Assembly: GCF_013167455.1 (NCBI RefSeq)
Contig: NZ_CP038328.1
Length of the DNA: 64,000 nucleotides
Strand: one strand, 5' to 3'
Origin: Escherichia coli O157:H7
GTDB lineage: Bacteria; Pseudomonadota; Gammaproteobacteria; Enterobacterales; Enterobacteriaceae
Shown here: piece by piece, positions 30,001-54,000 of the stretch
How positions within the stretch are numbered: the first letter of the stretch is position 1
Layout: the number at the start of each line of letters is the position of its first letter
Program-made: the position numbers

Positions 30001-33000
30001 AACGAACCTGATTCGCCAGCAATGCCTGAATTTGCTTGACGAGCGTTGCAGCCTCTTCTTTGAAATCTGCCGCATGCGTAATCATGGGCTTTTCCCCGTG
30101 CAGTAATGACAAATAATCATTACTGGTATCCGCTTCGCCATCGAGGTTATCAACCTTCACACCAGTTAACAGCCCAACAGCAAATTGACGCGTCTCTTCT
30201 GTGGTCCGATAGTTAATCTTCAATTTTTTACTGCGACGACCACGGACGTTAATACCACACTGACCAAGAACGACCTTATTGCGATAAATACGCTGATGCC
30301 CATCCCCGACAATAAACAGATCGTTGGGCGACTCGGGAACCAGGCTGCGAATAAGAGTAAATGCCGGGGCACCGATATCTTGAGCTTCATCGACCACAAT
30401 ACTGCTATAAGGTAGTTGGACCTGCTTTTCTTTAAACAGAACAATAGCCTCATGCATGGCATCGCCCATTTCGCGCAGTTTGGCACGCGCCATTTGTGCT
30501 CTGAATTCTTCAAAGACTGGCCAGATTTTCGCCCGTTGAATACGGGATAACGCTGTACCACGTCCAACCCGGCTGACTTTGAGGTATTCCTCCCGGGTGT
30601 AAACCGCATTTGGCTGGACAACGCGTTGCCACTCTTCAGCATAGAAATTATCAGGTAGCCCCAGTTCGGCAGGTGCCTGCTGCAAGGCATAGTTCCAGCA
30701 TTTGCGTCGCCCTTCATCGCTGTCGTATACCACGCGGAAATCATAACCGTGGCGTTTTAGTTGGTCGCTCATCCAGGCATCAATGTTAACGACGTCAATA
30801 CGCGCCATCTCTTCTCGCGTACACAACCGCTGGAGATTAGCGCGAATATCTGCCGCCAGGTTACGCGTAAAGGTCGTGAAAAGTACTTTCTTACCGGGTT
30901 TATCTGCCAGACGCTGAGATAACCACCGCGCACGGTGCATCGCAACAACCGTTTTCCCTGTACCTGCACCGCCCAGTACTCGTACCGGACCATTAGCGGG
31001 CGACTCCACCAATTTTCGCTGGCTCGGATGCAGAAATACACGCCATTTTTCTAAAGGCGCATTAAGCATCTGCAACAGCTCCTGTTCATTTTCAACGACA
31101 TGGAAGCGACGTTTACTTCGTTCAATCGCCTCCATAAAGTCGTTGGTATCAACAGGCTCATCACGATGATCGTTAAACTCTTCCAGCACTTCCTGGTAAT
31201 CCAGCCCTTCTGCCAGCCAGTGCAGAGGTTCCCAGGCTTCTGCTGGCATTATGCTTTCAAGTTGATTAAGCCCGGCTTCATCGGTAAGCGCCATCACCTG
31301 ATCAATAAAGACAGGCGGCACACCCAGAGCCAGAATCTGTTCCGCGCTGTAAGCAGCGAAGAGTTTCGGTTTATCAACCACTGTTTCCGCTGCCGGTTTG
31401 ATATAGCTAATATCAATGACCTGAATCGCGCCGGTAACCGGGTGAATTGAACAATCATGCCGCCGCGCCCAGTCATATGCTTCGTCGTGTTTATCCACCC
31501 ACATCAGCATATACAGGGCACCCTGTTCAGGTTTCAGAACAATGCCGCGATAAGTTTGATCGATTCGCACCGAATGGACATTTTTACTGCGCGCATCGTG
31601 GATCTTTTCATAGTTAAGTCCATTACTGGTCGGGTCCTGACGGAATTTGGAGATGAATTCCTGCACCTTTTTTTGCTGTGCCTTTGGGATCCGCGCGAAT
31701 GCGCCCAGAAAACCATCAGAAAGTGCCACCTTGGGCGTTTGCACCGTCATTTGTCACCTCCGGACAGATGTTGCAATGTATTTTCGTCAATTGGCCCGAA
31801 TGCAACGTGCCAACCCCTGGTTGTGAATAATGGAATAAATTCTTGATTATCAATAATCAATGCCCATTTTTGTGATGGCCAGGCGAGATCGGCTTCCGCA
31901 ATAATTTCACCTTCATCATTTTGCAATTCGTAGCCGAGAGTCGGCGCAGAGAGAGAATGAGACTGAAGCAACGCGATCTCTTCAGCGCTTAATAAGCCAA
32001 ACTCAATAATCTCAGCCCAACTCTCATCAGTCTCTGGTACTGCCTCTGGCGTTGCCGAAACTTTAGTGTCAACGCTTTCCTGCGGTAAATGCACGGCTTT
32101 ACGGCTGGTAAAGGTCATATCCGGCAGGAACTGTAACAGGTTTACCAGTCGCCAGAAGCCATTGAGTCCCGCTTCATAACCGTCATCCTGCGTATAGCGA
32201 TCGTCAAAACAGATATGCAAACGCAGCCAGCTGCGCATTTGTGCGACGCTGGTCGTCGGTTTAATGGCTTGTTGTGGTAACACCGAAGCCAGCTCAATAA
32301 ATTGCTGCGATGAGTTACAGCTATCGAGTAAACCACCAAAGACAAACGGTTCGTCTGGCAAAAGCTCTGCTAGCCGCCAAGCTGGCGCGTTTTCCTGCAT
32401 TTCATAGGCATACTTTTGTTTCGTTCCCGCGTCCTGTGACTTCTTCACATCCAACCACACCCAGGCATGTGCAGCAGCCATTCTCTGCCATAACTGCGTT
32501 CTTCCGCCCGGATCGGCGAGATAATCCAGCAGCAGTGCAAAACTGTTGCGTTCCCGGAACGACGCTTCAAGGGCCGCAAAGTTGGTATCATGAAACAGGT
32601 TATAAAACTTAGGCTGTTTCATATCCGGGTTATGCCCAAGTCCCAGGACATCCTGAACATGTTTAAGCCCTGGCTCTTTGAGATCGGCCCACGTGACTGT
32701 CCACACCCAGAAATTACCGCTATCCCGAATCGCCTGGCGTTTTTGCACATCCTCTGCGACGCTATTTTTGTGGAACGCAAAGCCATCAAGGAAAATAGCC
32801 ACCGGTTTAATGGCATCAGACTGCATAAGCGGATATAGCACGTAATCCGGGCGACAAGGGATCCCCACCGCCTCTTTAGCGCCTAAATCCACCTGAGCTT
32901 TAAGATGCCAGCTCATCATCGGTTCGCTGCGGGTGTTAATAATCCACCCAGCGCCCTGATGCGCGTAACTGCGACTGACAATCAGGTTTTTATTTTCTTG

Positions 33001-51000: not shown

Positions 51001-54000
51001 AATACCGGCGCTCCACAGTCACAATATTGGCGCTGCTCAAACCATACCTGACCAAATGGCCAGTCACTCTGATTTAATTCATGTGCTTTATGTGAGCATT
51101 GTTTGTTTGAACATGCCCATAGACCCGCCAGTGTTCTGATAAACCCATGCATACGTAATGGCGTAAAAGCCAGTTCACCTTCTCGCGATCTTGCCATTAG
51201 ATCGAGGAGTTGCAGTAGCTCACGGTGATTAATATCTGGCCAGGTTCTTCTGGCAACATTGAGCAACTCACTCAAACGTACTGCCTGCCGTCCGGGATGA
51301 GTTAACGCCTGACGCAATTGCTGGGCCACACGGTAATGACAAAGCTGTTGGTAAAGATCCTGAGGGCTCAGGGATTTAAGAGAAGTTAAAGATGTGGGGT
51401 ATTCATGACGAATCAGCGACTCCGATACCCGCGGTATTTGTCGATAACCGCGAACCACTTTGACATCACGTTCTGTAACGCCCGCGAGATCAGCGACAAA
51501 TTTAGCAAGCTCCTTATTACCTTCAGGAGAGTCTTCACCAATAGTGGCAGAGGTCGCGATAATCTGCACAGGTTTATCTGTGCCGGGTCCAACATTGAAA
51601 GCCTGCATAACACGACGTAAAAGCAGCGCTAACTCAGCAGCCTGAGAACCAATATAACTATGGGCTTCATCCAGGACGATATACTTTAACATCCCCTGAG
51701 ACTTTTCGATGATTGGGGCATCTTTACGACGAATCAGCATATATTCCAGCATGGTGGTATTCGTCACCATGATGGAAGGTGGTGCTTCATAAATGGCTTC
51801 CCGACTCAAAGCTTGTTCAGGTACTTTCAACTGATCTTCCTGAATTTCGTATTTGGTATGCCGGGTTTCGCCATTATATAGCGCGAAGCGTATTTTCCCC
51901 TTAAATCCGCGCGTCCATTCGCGAAGCCGCTCCTGTTGGCTGTTAATTAATGCATTTAACGGATACAAGAAAATAGCTTGTGTCCCTGTTAGTGACTGGC
52001 GGGTCGATTTTTGCTGACGAATAAGATCTTCCAGAACCGGTACCATAAAGCATTCTGTTTTCCCGGATCCCGTACCGCTGCTCACTAACAAGGATTTTTT
52101 GTCTTCCAGAATCGTTCGCCACGCAGTAAGTTGATGACGAAATGGCACTGGCGCTTTGCTCAATGCATCAACCAGCGGGCTGGAGATCAGCTTGTCCCGC
52201 AAATCCTCCATTGTTTCATCCGCAGGCATCCAGCCGAATGTACTTTCGAATACCGGGTCTGCAAGCAGTGACCCCTCCTGACCGGGAGGCTGAAAATATT
52301 GTGATTCCAGATAATGAGTCAACGACTTGCTCCGCAATGCCAACTGACTTACCACCGACCTCACCGCACGCTGATGAAGCTGATTTAGAAGTGGCGCATA
52401 ATGCAGTTGCTGAACGTCCATCAATGACATACTCCTGCTTGTTCAAAATAATATTGATAGATTACCCCTAATTGCTGTGGGGCTTGCTGATAGTGAAATT
52501 CAAAAAGCGCAGACAGTTGATGTATCAGGTTATTATCTTTTTGGGTTAACAGCGCTGCGACTAACATCAAATTAAAACGTTTTTCAAGCCGTGAGTGATA
52601 TTTATCTTCAATCCAAAGCTTATTAAAAACAGATTTTAACTCTGGAGTAATAGCACTAGACCAAAGTTCTTTAGGGAAGATACTGATACGCCCAAAGCTG
52701 TCGGGGTTCCTTAATAGCATCTGTTTAGCTTCATTAAACTGCTCACGACTAACAGTTGGCAATACATCACAACCGGTTGGTAGGCTCTCACTATATGTAA
52801 GTAACATATTCGCAATCGGAGCCAGCCGACGATCGATATGTGCACGATGGTTCATAAAAGCAATAAAGGGTTGCAATATATGTAATGCTAATGTTTTATC
52901 GTTAATCTGTTTCTCCAGATAAGTCCAACATTTTTGGAAAACATCTTTCCAGATTGAAACGGGAATCCATCCCCATGAAAAGGGTAATTCTTCCTGTATA
53001 TCATAAATCGTATCGCTATCACCAGAAAGACATGATGATATTAACAATTGAACAACCACGCGGTAATTACTCGAAATACCTCTGAACAAGTCCAGATCCA
53101 GCAAGGATAAGCCATTATTCATTTTGTATTTCTTAATATACTCTGTTAATAAACAGCAATAATTTTGCAATGGGTTGTTATCTATTTCAAAAATTAGCTC
53201 ATTAAAATTTTTTTTGCGCTGTTCTGGGTCTGCTTCGCATAGAGCATTTAGTAATAAATCATTTGTCTGCAATACAGGTAGCATCCATTTAATTACTGGT
53301 GCAATGCGAGCTGTACCATCAAGTTTTCCCACAATTAACCATGGACTATCCTGAACATTCAGAGCTGAAAGATCATAAGCAAACTCATCTTTTTTTAACA
53401 ATGATATGTGTAAGCCAGGATTCTTAAGAGAAATAGCATCAACAACCAGTTCGTCTATTCTATTTGCAGGAAAAACAACAGAATTTTTTATATCAACCAG
53501 TAACCCTTGATCGTGTTCAATAAAACTACCATCGTAGCGTTTAATATTGAGTGTTGCTTTATCCTTTCCAAATCTGTCAGAGTAAAAATCAACACATAAT
53601 GTACTATTGCTGTTCCATGCACATGCCAGCATAGCATTTAGCAAATTATAGTTCTCATAAAGTGAAATTTGTTGTAATTTGTCATTGCGTCCTGATAAAA
53701 GAGGAAGGTCGGCATGTAAATAGCGGAATTTTTCAGCTACTGGATTTTCATCCAATAACTCGATATTAAGATATCCTCTTCCAGCACATGATATGGTTAA
53801 TAACTCAGCATCTATTCCATGCAAATGTGCTATAGATGCCACACCATCAAAATGAACAGAACCATCATTAGTTACAAATCGGCCACCGCTAACCGGCTTA
53901 GGTAATAATAGTTTAAGATTAGAACCATCTTTCCAGGAGACCCGTAAATCAACGGTATTTTCCAGCATCAGCGATGAATTATAATAAATAGCACACTCGT

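What the first reader, a model, noticed from the sequence alone, without database searches (positions are those of the whole stretch)
31747..52430. Two different giant helicase/DUF1998 proteins in one island
The 2107-aa and 2113-aa proteins share the same N-terminal motif I (GTGSGKTECFM), the DExH box, a long insertion before motif VI, and a Cys-rich DUF1998 module, but differ clearly elsewhere. They could be diverged duplicates assigned to two systems, or parts of one larger system.
Basis: seen in the sequence. Interest (0 to 1): 0.45.

Follow-up and report, generated by a model that had tools for sequence, protein, structure and literature searches.

The report
Druantia III and ARMADA II helicases

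Summary
Window 46107-52430(-) encodes DruE and 31747-38088(-) encodes ArmC. Both carry GTGSGKTECFM, a DExH box, about 800 aa inserted before motif VI, and an MZB/DUF1998 zinc module.

Family profiles align over about 1,400 columns (ArmC 71-1705 to DruE 94-1741, E 2e-66, 22% identity). Only the last ~400 aa differ. DruE is reported to end in tandem PLD-like domains. ArmC's modelled end has a Vsr-like PD-(D/E)xK fold.

The window is E. coli O157:H7 O-island 172: zorABE, druHE, armABCD. ArmC is WP_000937974.1, the published ARMADA Type II representative. DruE matches PDB 9tu7.

They are ancient paralogues, not local duplicates. In my tree the ArmC/DruE split has 100/100 bootstrap support.

They belong to two systems, not one:
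- each cassette occurs alone in other bacteria;
- DruE is truncated beside intact armABCD on 9 of 17 enterobacterial plasmids;
- each cassette protects when cloned alone (literature).

They co-occur in about 98% of carrier E. coli genomes and are reported to act synergistically.

Novelty: already known (Bell et al. 2025; Li et al. 2025).

Side lead: ArmC's terminal ~80-aa domain equals the C-terminal extension of ZorE.

The parts
52421..55780 (-). druH (1119 aa), partner of DruE in Druantia type III; RefSeq 'STY4851/ECs_5259 family protein'
   Evidence: PADLOC DruH3 model PDLC00041 matches full length at 2554.9 bits. RefSeq annotation. No Pfam family.
46107..52430 (-). druE (2107-aa ORF; annotated start at 52421 gives 2104 aa): YprA-family SF2 helicase-nuclease of Druantia type III
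   Evidence: PADLOC DruE3 PDLC00037 matches aa 9-2105 at 2184.9 bits. Pfam DEAD, Helicase_C and MZB. Phmmer match to solved structure 9tu7 chain Y (2108 aa) at 4905 bits over aa 3-2107. Residue numbers of Wu et al. match after -3.
52044..52076 (-). DruE motif I, GTGSGKTECFM (aa 119-129)
   Evidence: Invariant in 5 DruE homologues.
47349..47588 (-). DruE MZB/DUF1998 zinc module (aa 1615-1694)
   Evidence: Pfam PF09369, E 2.5e-12.
46110..47207 (-). DruE C-terminal ~365 aa, not alignable to ArmC; described in the literature as tandem PLD-like domains (inactive plus active)
   Evidence: The hhalign alignment ends at DruE aa 1741. No Pfam hit and no HxK(x)4D motif here. The PLD assignment comes from papers.
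45884..46106 (-). 223-bp gap between druE and armA, with terminator-like hairpins and promoter-like hexamers: the boundary between two transcription units
   Evidence: Sequence. One terminator-like and two promoter-like sites in this gap (consensus matches only).
43025..45883 (-). armA (952 aa): SNF2/BrxHII/DrmD-like helicase of ARMADA II
   Evidence: PADLOC DrmD 332.7 bits and BrxHII 200.6 bits. Pfam SNF2-rel_dom and Helicase_C. K136 and D236 fall on Walker A and B.
38088..43022 (-). armB (1644 aa): PglX/Type IIG-like N6-adenine DNA methyltransferase, with a mosaic target-recognition region
   Evidence: PADLOC REase_MTase_IIG 951.9 bits and DrmMI 191.3 bits. Pfam Eco57I. NPPW at N971. Alleles are 99-100% identical except aa ~1100-1200 and 1300-1500, which are 45-65% identical.
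31747..38088 (-). armC (2113 aa): YprA-family helicase-nuclease of ARMADA Type II; identical to WP_000937974.1
   Evidence: RefSeq protein id; the same accession is the ARMADA Type II representative in Bell et al.. Best PADLOC hits are DruE3 at 347.5 bits in pieces and DrmA at 49 bits. No solved structure; the best PDB sequence hit is DruE 9tu7 at 166.8 bits.
37744..37776 (-). ArmC motif I, GTGSGKTECFM (aa 105-115)
   Evidence: G105-E112 and F114 are invariant in 20 ArmC homologues. The K110A mutant abolishes defence (paper).
33175..33444 (-). ArmC MZB/DUF1998 zinc module (aa 1549-1638)
   Evidence: Pfam PF09369, E 4.6e-13.
32659..33021 (-). ArmC Vsr-like PD-(D/E)xK nuclease domain (aa ~1690-1810); D1748, D1768, H1773, D1780 and R1784 invariant
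31789..32034 (-). ArmC terminal ~80-aa domain (aa ~2019-2100), homologous to the C-terminal extension of ZorE
   Evidence: PADLOC ZorE2 model positions 282-357 hit ArmC aa 2021-2096. BLASTP 39% over 57 aa, E 2e-7. hhalign probability 96.8%, E 3e-10.
29636..31750 (-). [quoted passage not shown]
55992..59465 (+). zorA2-zorB2-zorE (Zorya type II), divergent from druHE; the third system of the island
   Evidence: RefSeq annotation; ORFs.

Best explanation
The region holds two separate anti-phage systems. They sit side by side on a mobile defence island (O-island 172 of E. coli O157:H7). Each is built around its own giant YprA-family SF2 helicase-nuclease.

druH-druE is Druantia type III. According to the 2026 structural preprints, DruE is a dimeric 3'-to-5' DNA helicase. 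It loads on exposed 3' single-stranded DNA or forks of phage replication and recombination intermediates. DruH binds or trims single-stranded DNA and acts as sensor or licensing factor. Phage DNA is cleared without killing the cell.

armA-armB-armC-armD is ARMADA type II. Four points are shown in the literature. All four genes are needed. The ATPase motifs of ArmA, ArmC and ArmD are needed. The NPPW methyltransferase motif of ArmB is needed. Protection is direct, not abortive.

The following is my inference. ArmB marks host DNA at a sequence motif set by its swappable target-recognition region. Unmarked phage DNA is engaged by the ArmA translocase and the ArmC helicase. It is then cut by ArmC's C-terminal Vsr-like nuclease. 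ArmD assists.

DruE and ArmC descend from one ancestral helicase that already had the long insertion and the OB-CON-MZB canopy. They diverged long before this island formed and acquired different C-terminal nuclease modules.

Their juxtaposition reflects co-mobilisation and selection for complementary, partly synergistic coverage. It does not reflect one obligate machine.
For: Identity of the locus:
- The 22.8-kb query spanning armD to druE (window 29636-52430) is 100% identical to many O157:H7 chromosomes.
- RefSeq annotates zorA2/zorB2/zorE, the STY4851/ECs_5259 family protein (DruH) and the helicases there.
- PADLOC gives DruH3 2554.9 bits and DruE3 2184.9 bits, both full length. ArmA matches DrmD/BrxHII, ArmB matches Type IIG MTase/DrmMI, ArmD matches GajB.
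- ArmC is WP_000937974.1, the ARMADA II representative.
- All eight residues mutated in Bell et al. fall on the expected motifs with the same numbering.
- DruE matches PDB 9tu7 at 4905 bits.

Homology and divergence:
- hhalign aligns ArmC 71-1705 to DruE 94-1741, E 2.2e-66. The C-termini are not aligned.
- The NJ tree splits ArmC from DruE at 100/100. Identity is 22% to the neighbour against 41-42% to cyanobacterial ArmC.
- The ArmC C-terminus has a Vsr-like fold.
- The ArmD N-terminus has a RelE fold.

Autonomy of the two cassettes:
- armABCD occurs alone on Nostoc and Pseudanabaena plasmids, with no DruHE within 20 kb.
- In V. cholerae the gene directly upstream of armA is DdmE-like (E 1.5e-28), not druE.
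- druHE occurs alone in Marinobacter, P. luteola and Methylocystis.
- DruE is 5'-truncated with armABCD intact on 9 of 17 enterobacterial plasmids.
- A 223-bp gap with terminator-like hairpins separates the cassettes, whereas genes within each cassette overlap or abut.

Literature:
- ARMADA II cloned alone protects.
- DruHE cloned alone protects.
- Synergy is seen in native hosts.
- DruE mechanism.

ArmB mosaic target-recognition region.
Against: In E. coli the two cassettes are almost never apart. ArmC is in 525 genomes, DruE in 518, and both are contiguous in 513. They are co-directional. Both groups report more-than-additive protection for some phages. Some functional coupling is therefore real and unexplained.

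The ARMADA II mechanism I give is inferred by analogy with DISARM, BREX and Type IIG systems. Nobody has shown methylation-based discrimination or cutting by the Vsr-like domain. The armB deletion mutant is viable and loses defence, so ArmB is not only a self-protecting methylase.

The role of DruE's PLD domains is disputed. Himpich et al. report them dispensable. Wu et al. and Loeff et al. report them required.

Confidence: 0.92

Rival explanations
1. The six genes druH-druE-armA-armB-armC-armD form one obligate composite system. The two giant helicases work as subunits of a single machine, for example as a heterodimer.
For: The two cassettes co-occur in about 98% of carrier E. coli genomes. 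The same order is found on a Klebsiella plasmid and in Pantoea. They are co-directional. Synergy is published. DruE is known to dimerise. Himpich et al. speculate that DruE's PLD domains might serve this synergy.
Against: All E. coli copies are at least 95% identical, so they represent one island lineage and not independent associations. Each cassette stands alone in other taxa. DruE is truncated beside intact armABCD on 9 of 17 plasmids. An intergenic gap with terminator-like hairpins separates them. Each cassette protects when cloned alone.
Confidence: 0.04
2. The two helicase genes are a recent local duplication within this island, followed by rapid divergence and recruitment of different partners.
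For: Same length (2107 and 2113 aa), same strand, 8 kb apart, and an identical 11-residue motif I.
Against: Identity is only 22% over 1,691 shared columns. Each protein is far closer to orthologues in distant phyla (41-42% and 35-38%). The ArmC/DruE split has 100/100 support. The C-terminal modules differ. The identical motif is conserved family-wide.
Confidence: 0.01
3. The armABCD cassette is simply a class 1 DISARM system in which DrmA, DrmB and DrmC are fused. The second helicase would then be a DrmA, not a Druantia-like protein.
For: ArmA matches PADLOC DrmD at 332.7 bits and ArmB matches DrmMI at 191.3 bits. Li et al. describe ArmC as resembling a DrmA-DrmB fusion.
Against: ArmC scores 347.5 bits on DruE3 and 323.5 bits on DruE1 but only 49 bits on DrmA. 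It aligns with DruE over 1,409 columns, including the insertion. There is no separate DrmB and no PLD-type DrmC. The nuclease is Vsr-like. The cassette has an extra RelE-UvrD gene. Bell et al. place ARMADA with Druantia, apart from the DISARM/Dpd clade.
Confidence: 0.03

Closest known systems
ARMADA Type II (ArmA-ArmB-ArmC-ArmD); Bell et al., bioRxiv 10.1101/2025.09.15.676423; Li et al., bioRxiv 10.1101/2025.09.22.677730
   Same: It is this system. ArmC is the very accession used as the type representative (WP_000937974.1). The gene order matches: SNF2 helicase, PglX-like methyltransferase, YprA helicase, RelE-UvrD helicase. The residues mutated in the paper match the window's numbering.
   Different: Nothing in the window itself differs. 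In other bacteria I saw extra defence genes between armB and armC. A term search of the paper's main text found no mention of such genes, and the paper calls the gene order strict.
Druantia type III / III-A (DruH-DruE); named in Doron et al. 2018 (from my knowledge); mechanism in PMC13192584, 10.64898/2026.05.12.722862, 10.64898/2026.05.13.724758, 10.64898/2026.05.13.724313
   Same: It is this system. Both PADLOC models match full length. DruE matches the solved structure 9tu7 at 4905 bits over its full length. The EDL933 protein itself was purified and studied.
   Different: Nothing. The ORF-list start is 3 codons upstream of the start used in RefSeq and the papers.
DISARM class 1 (DrmD, DrmMI, DrmA, DrmB, DrmC)
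   Same: ARMADA II shares the SNF2 helicase, the N6-adenine methyltransferase and a YprA-type helicase with a DUF1998 module. The logic is probably similar: a methylation-linked, DNA-structure-sensing restriction-like defence (inferred).
   Different: In ArmC the helicase and the DUF1998 part are one polypeptide. The helicase belongs to the Druantia-ARMADA clade. The nuclease is Vsr-like, not a PLD-type DrmC. There is an extra RelE-UvrD protein.
MrfA/YprA DNA-repair helicase of Bacillus subtilis (PDB 6znp)
   Same: Both giants share its RecA1/RecA2 core and the MZB zinc module. 6znp is the third-best PDB sequence match for each (E 1.4e-19 and 2.8e-20).
   Different: MrfA is 751 aa. It lacks the ~800-aa insertion and the fused C-terminal nuclease, and it works in repair, not defence (papers).
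BREX (BrxHII helicase, PglX methyltransferase)
   Same: ArmA and ArmB are homologues of BrxHII and PglX (Bell et al.). As the armB deletion and N971A results show, the methyltransferase is needed for defence itself.
   Different: No PglZ, BrxC or BrxL. ARMADA II has a YprA helicase-nuclease instead.

Membership tests
Druantia type III | A DruE of the type III kind: giant SF2 helicase with an MZB/DUF1998 module | tested here: met
   PADLOC DruE3 PDLC00037 covers aa 9-2105 at 2184.9 bits. Pfam DEAD, Helicase_C and MZB. PDB 9tu7 at 4905 bits.
Druantia type III | druH immediately upstream, in the same operon | tested here: met
   PADLOC DruH3 at 2554.9 bits full length. The druH stop overlaps the druE start.
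Druantia type III | Tandem C-terminal PLD-like domains in DruE | tested here: inconclusive
   No Pfam PLD hit and no HxK(x)4D motif in aa 1710-2107. The PLD fold is asserted from cryo-EM and AlphaFold models in papers. Those cover a protein that matches this one at 4905 bits over its full length.
Druantia type III | Confers phage resistance as a two-gene module | not testable with these tools
   Reported for the E. coli ATCC 8739 and EDL933 systems.
ARMADA Type II | YprA-family helicase of the ARMADA II clade, distinct from DruE | tested here: met
   Same accession as the published representative. The NJ tree separates ArmC from DruE at 100/100. 120 listed full-length homologues of 2,055-2,184 aa at 39-99% identity.
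ARMADA Type II | Gene order: BrxHII-like helicase, PglX-like methyltransferase, YprA helicase, GajB-like helicase | tested here: met
   The same order is found in Nostoc, Pseudanabaena, V. cholerae and Pantoea.
ARMADA Type II | C-terminal Vsr-type PD-(D/E)xK nuclease domain in the YprA helicase | tested here: met
ARMADA Type II | [quoted passage not shown] | tested here: met
ARMADA Type II | Anti-phage activity requiring all four genes | not testable with these tools
   Reported for the numbering-identical NCTC 12900 cluster and for EDL933 deletion mutants.
DISARM class 1 | DrmA helicase with a separate DrmB (DUF1998) protein | tested here: not met
   The helicase and MZB module are one 2113-aa polypeptide. 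The DrmA models score only 49 bits against 347 bits for DruE3.
DISARM class 1 | DrmD SNF2 helicase and DrmMI methyltransferase | tested here: met
   ArmA matches DrmD at 332.7 bits and ArmB matches DrmMI at 191.3 bits, although ArmB scores far higher on Type IIG models (951.9 bits).
DISARM class 1 | PLD-family DrmC nuclease | tested here: not met
   There is no such gene in the cassette. The ArmC nuclease domain is Vsr-like.

The most novel reading that the evidence does not exclude
The three systems of the island may be coupled through a shared protein module and not only through shared DNA intermediates.

ArmC ends in an ~80-aa Vsr-like domain that is homologous to the 'nuclease-like C-terminal extension' of ZorE. 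Wu et al. found that extension enriched in Druantia III-associated ZorE but could not assign it. The same domain caps other defence proteins embedded in ARMADA II operons (PDC-S68 and TmtA) and NERD-SF1 helicases.

If this domain is a common docking or DNA-structure-recognition unit, then ArmC, ZorE and these guests would converge on one substrate or partner. The reported Zorya-Druantia link might then in part be a Zorya-ARMADA link. A stronger version is that DruE and ArmC form mixed assemblies.
Probability: 0.1. Interest if true: 0.55.

Novelty: already known. Interest (0 to 1): 0.15.

Why it matters
[quoted passage not shown] That bears on phage therapy against O157:H7.

The two helicases are paralogous cores of two systems that synergise.

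Three things remain open, and this locus is where they are being studied:
- how ARMADA II tells self from phage DNA;
- what its nuclease does;
- why two helicase-nuclease systems together give more than additive protection.

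Tried and rejected
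Searches that found nothing:
1. Pfam on the C-terminal ~400 aa and on the ~750-aa insertions of both proteins found nothing usable. The same held for 21 ArmC C-termini. The only hint was one weak REase_MTES_1575 hit at E 0.079.
2. A regex for the PLD HxK(x)4D motif found none in either protein.
4. A profile of the ArmC C-termini against PDB sequences gave only chance hits.
5. hhalign of that profile against a real Vsr (L016:22688-23149) was not significant. The Vsr-like call therefore rests on the fold and on motif resemblance only.

Ideas rejected:
6. A local duplication origin.
7. Filing armABCD under DISARM.
8. The ZorE extension occurring only next to ARMADA II or Druantia III. A 19-kb P. 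putida plasmid and a V. coralliilyticus plasmid carry zorABE with the long ZorE. Neither system is annotated nearby.
9. The many 100-250-aa proteins carrying the terminal domain have no Pfam match. Several longer hits (1,135-1,563 aa) turned out to be N-terminally cut ArmC fragments. The hit count therefore overstates the diversity.

Not done: I did not run a genome contigs or metagenome scan. Graded context look-ups answered the co-occurrence question at much lower cost.

Full report
**What is at the coordinates**

The minus strand carries six large genes in a row:
- 52421-55780 (1119 aa)
- 46107-52430 (2107 aa)
- 43025-45883 (952 aa)
- 38088-43022 (1644 aa)
- 31747-38088 (2113 aa)
- 29636-31750 (704 aa)

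Both contain the exact string GTGSGKTECFM, at aa 119 and aa 105. Both have a DExH box (DEAH at 254, DELH at 234). Motif VI is QRAGRAGR at 1134 and QRIGRAGR at 1058. Pfam finds DEAD, Helicase_C and the MZB/DUF1998 zinc module in both.

One detail differs. RefSeq and the experimental papers start the first protein three codons later, giving 2104 aa.

**How alike the two proteins are**

BLASTP detects 34% identity over 211 aa of RecA1 and 23% over 722 aa from RecA2 to the zinc module.

I built family alignments of 20 ArmC-type and 5 DruE-type sequences. Profile-profile comparison gives one continuous alignment. It runs from ArmC 71-1705 to DruE 94-1741, with 1,409 columns, probability 100%, E 2.2e-66 and 22% identity.

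The ~800-aa insertion between motifs II and VI is therefore homologous in the two proteins, not merely present in both. The last ~400 residues do not align.

**What the different ends are**

Pfam sees nothing in either end.

- lower down, RAP, VRR-NUC, PvuRts1I and AbaSI

D1748, D1768, H1773, D1780 and R1784 are invariant across 20 homologues. Foldseek and sequence profiles were negative, so this support is moderate. It agrees with Bell et al..

For the 2107-aa protein, the papers describe two PLD-like domains, based on cryo-EM structures. The PDB chain 9tu7 matches the window protein at 4905 bits over its full length.

**Identity of the locus**

The 22.8-kb query spanning armD to druE (window 29636-52430) is 100% identical to many E. 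coli O157:H7 chromosomes. The window runs from ordinary core genes (iatD, uxu, gntP, fim, nanC, nanM) into the island.

PADLOC identifies the genes as follows:
- the first two are DruH3 (2554.9 bits) and DruE3 (2184.9 bits), both full length;
- the 952-aa protein matches DrmD/BrxHII;
- the 1644-aa protein matches Type IIG methyltransferase/DrmMI;
- the 704-aa protein matches GajB;
- the 2113-aa protein scores best on DruE models, but only 347 bits in pieces, against 49 bits on DrmA.

RefSeq annotates a divergent zorA2-zorB2-zorE next to druH.

**The literature already covers this locus**

Li et al. [quoted passage not shown]

Bell et al. (bioRxiv 10.1101/2025.09.15.676423) define ARMADA and use WP_000937974.1 as the Type II representative. 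That is the accession RefSeq gives the 2113-aa protein here.

The eight residues they mutated all fall on the expected motifs with the same numbers in the window:
- ArmA K136 and D236
- ArmB G605 and N971
- ArmC K110 and D234
- ArmD K266 and D454

**Duplicates or ancient paralogues?**

I built an NJ tree of 7 ArmC and 5 DruE sequences over 1,691 shared columns. It separates the two groups with 100/100 bootstrap support.

The window ArmC is 41-42% identical to ArmC of Nostoc and Pseudanabaena but 22% identical to the DruE 8 kb away. The window DruE is 35-38% identical to DruE of Marinobacter, Pseudomonas luteola and Methylocystis.

The two genes are old paralogues brought together in the island. 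They are not a local duplication.

**One system or two?**

In E. coli they travel together. ArmC is found in 525 of 5,426 complete genomes. DruE is found in 518 at 80% coverage or more. Both are contiguous in 513. All copies are at least 95% identical, so this is one island lineage.

Outside that lineage the cassettes separate:
- armABCD stands alone on cyanobacterial plasmids. All four proteins are 37-48% identical and no DruH or DruE lies within 20 kb.
- In V. cholerae a DdmE-like gene lies directly upstream of armA.
- druHE stands alone in three distant plasmids.
- In Pantoea (ArmC 80% identical) a 2109-aa DruE-like gene again precedes armA. The pairing therefore extends beyond E. coli and Klebsiella.

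Of 17 enterobacterial plasmids with a full-length ArmC, 9 carry DruE cut at its 5' end, beginning at residue 152, 282, 832 or 1420. In the one plasmid I examined (pYLPD7b), an IS903B sits at the break.

Within each cassette the genes overlap or abut. The cassettes are separated by 223 bp with terminator-like hairpins.

Published experiments agree. ARMADA II cloned alone protects and needs all four genes. DruHE cloned alone protects. In native hosts the two are additive or synergistic depending on the phage.

**How it most likely works**

Shown in the 2026 preprints for Druantia III:
- DruE is a dimeric 3'-to-5' helicase that loads on 3' single-stranded tails or forks.
- DruH binds or trims single-stranded DNA.
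- Defence is direct, not abortive.

The need for DruE's PLD domains is disputed.

For ARMADA II, only the genetic requirements and the non-abortive phenotype are shown.

I infer a DISARM/BREX-like logic. ArmB marks host DNA, and unmarked DNA is engaged by ArmA and ArmC and cut by the Vsr-like domain. One piece of support found here is that ArmB alleles are 99-100% identical except for two blocks (aa ~1100-1200 and ~1300-1500) at 45-65% identity. That is the pattern of a swapped target-recognition region. The armB deletion is viable and loses defence, so ArmB is part of the restriction activity itself.

**Side observations**

ArmC's last ~80 residues are homologous to the C-terminal extension of the island's own ZorE.

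They are also homologous to the C-terminal ends of a PDC-S68 protein and a TmtA protein. These sit between armB and armC in Vibrio and Shewanella.

A profile of this domain finds 1,594 cluster representatives in 1.84 billion proteins. In the 150 best hits listed it lies at or near the C-terminus. Carriers include NERD-SF1 helicases.

Wu et al. reported the ZorE extension as an unassigned nuclease-like region enriched in Druantia-associated ZorE. I found no mention of its likeness to ArmC in the parts I read or in a term search for 'ARMADA'.

Two plasmids carry the long ZorE with neither system annotated nearby. The domain is therefore not tied to these neighbours.

**Verdict**

The finding is real and the 'two systems' reading is correct. 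It is already known, down to the same accessions.

Noticed in passing
window 31789-32034 (ArmC aa ~2019-2100) and window 59187-59408 (ZorE aa 276-349); L013:6071-9991 aa 1208-1290; L012:5001-9989 aa 1596-1657: ArmC's terminal ~80-aa domain is homologous to ZorE's C-terminal extension in the same island. It is also homologous to the C-terminal ends of a PDC-S68 (RecD-like) protein and a TmtA (Tiamat) protein embedded in ARMADA II operons elsewhere (hhalign probability 96-97%, E 3e-10 to 9e-9). A profile finds 1,594 cluster representatives, C-terminal in the 150 best listed, including NERD-SF1 helicases. Wu et al. 2026 left the ZorE extension unassigned. Two plasmids have it without ARMADA or Druantia annotated nearby.
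   Followed up: partly
L007, L008, L009, L012, L013, L015 (between armB and armC homologues): In other bacteria the junction between armB and armC holds extra defence genes. These are a GajB/UvrD-like protein of 866-1017 aa (Aeromonas), PDC-S68 (V. diabolicus, Microbulbifer) and TmtA (Shewanella). In Photobacterium a full ZorA-ZorB-ZorE trio sits directly upstream of armC-armD. The armC-armD pair was invariant in all loci seen. A term search of Bell et al.'s main text found no mention of this slot.
   Followed up: partly
L002:4969-10446 (E. coli IncY plasmid pYLPD7b) and 8 further plasmids: On 9 of 17 enterobacterial plasmids that carry a full-length ArmC, DruE is cut at its 5' end (starting at residue 152, 282, 832 or 1420). 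In pYLPD7b, the one examined, an IS903B sits at the break and druH is absent. Druantia III has been lost there while ArmC, and in pYLPD7b the whole armABCD cassette, stayed intact.
   Followed up: partly
window 38088-43022 (ArmB aa ~1100-1200 and ~1300-1500): ArmB alleles from an E. coli plasmid and a Klebsiella plasmid are 99-100% identical to the window except for two blocks at 45-65% identity. This looks like swapping of the target-recognition region. Li et al. also note that armB is the variable gene of the island.
   Followed up: partly
window 25936-26599 and 59621-59944: A diverged remnant of the nanC-nanM junction and the 5' part of nanM lies just beyond zorE (92% identity over 256 nt, 75% over 71 nt). 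The zor-dru-arm block is thus bracketed by nanM sequence on both sides. nanS is truncated at the near edge, next to a frameshifted transposase gene.
   Followed up: partly
window 60006-60857 and 61055-62144: Beyond the three systems RefSeq annotates a phosphorothioated-DNA-binding restriction endonuclease. It is followed by transposase and tyrosine-integrase pseudogene fragments, remains of the element that delivered the island. No tRNA gene lies in the window.
   Followed up: no
L010:2-1822 and L011 (V. cholerae): The gene directly upstream of armA in V. cholerae matches PADLOC DdmE, the Argonaute-like protein of the DdmDE plasmid-defence system, at E 1.5e-28.
   Followed up: no
L019:10686-20333 (NZ_CP134663.1): An E. 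coli gull isolate carries a second, distant DruH-DruE pair. Its DruE is 37% identical to the window's and 64% identical to that of Pseudomonas luteola. No ARMADA-sized ORFs lie in the ~10 kb downstream (ORFs of at least 300 aa listed to 30 kb). The record is filed as a plasmid but is 4.9 Mb long, so it is really a chromosome.
   Followed up: no
window 52421-52430: The longest ORF for DruE starts at ATG 52430 (MSLM...). RefSeq and all experimental papers use the ATG at 52421, which overlaps the druH stop by one base. The protein is 2104 aa, not 2107.
   Followed up: yes
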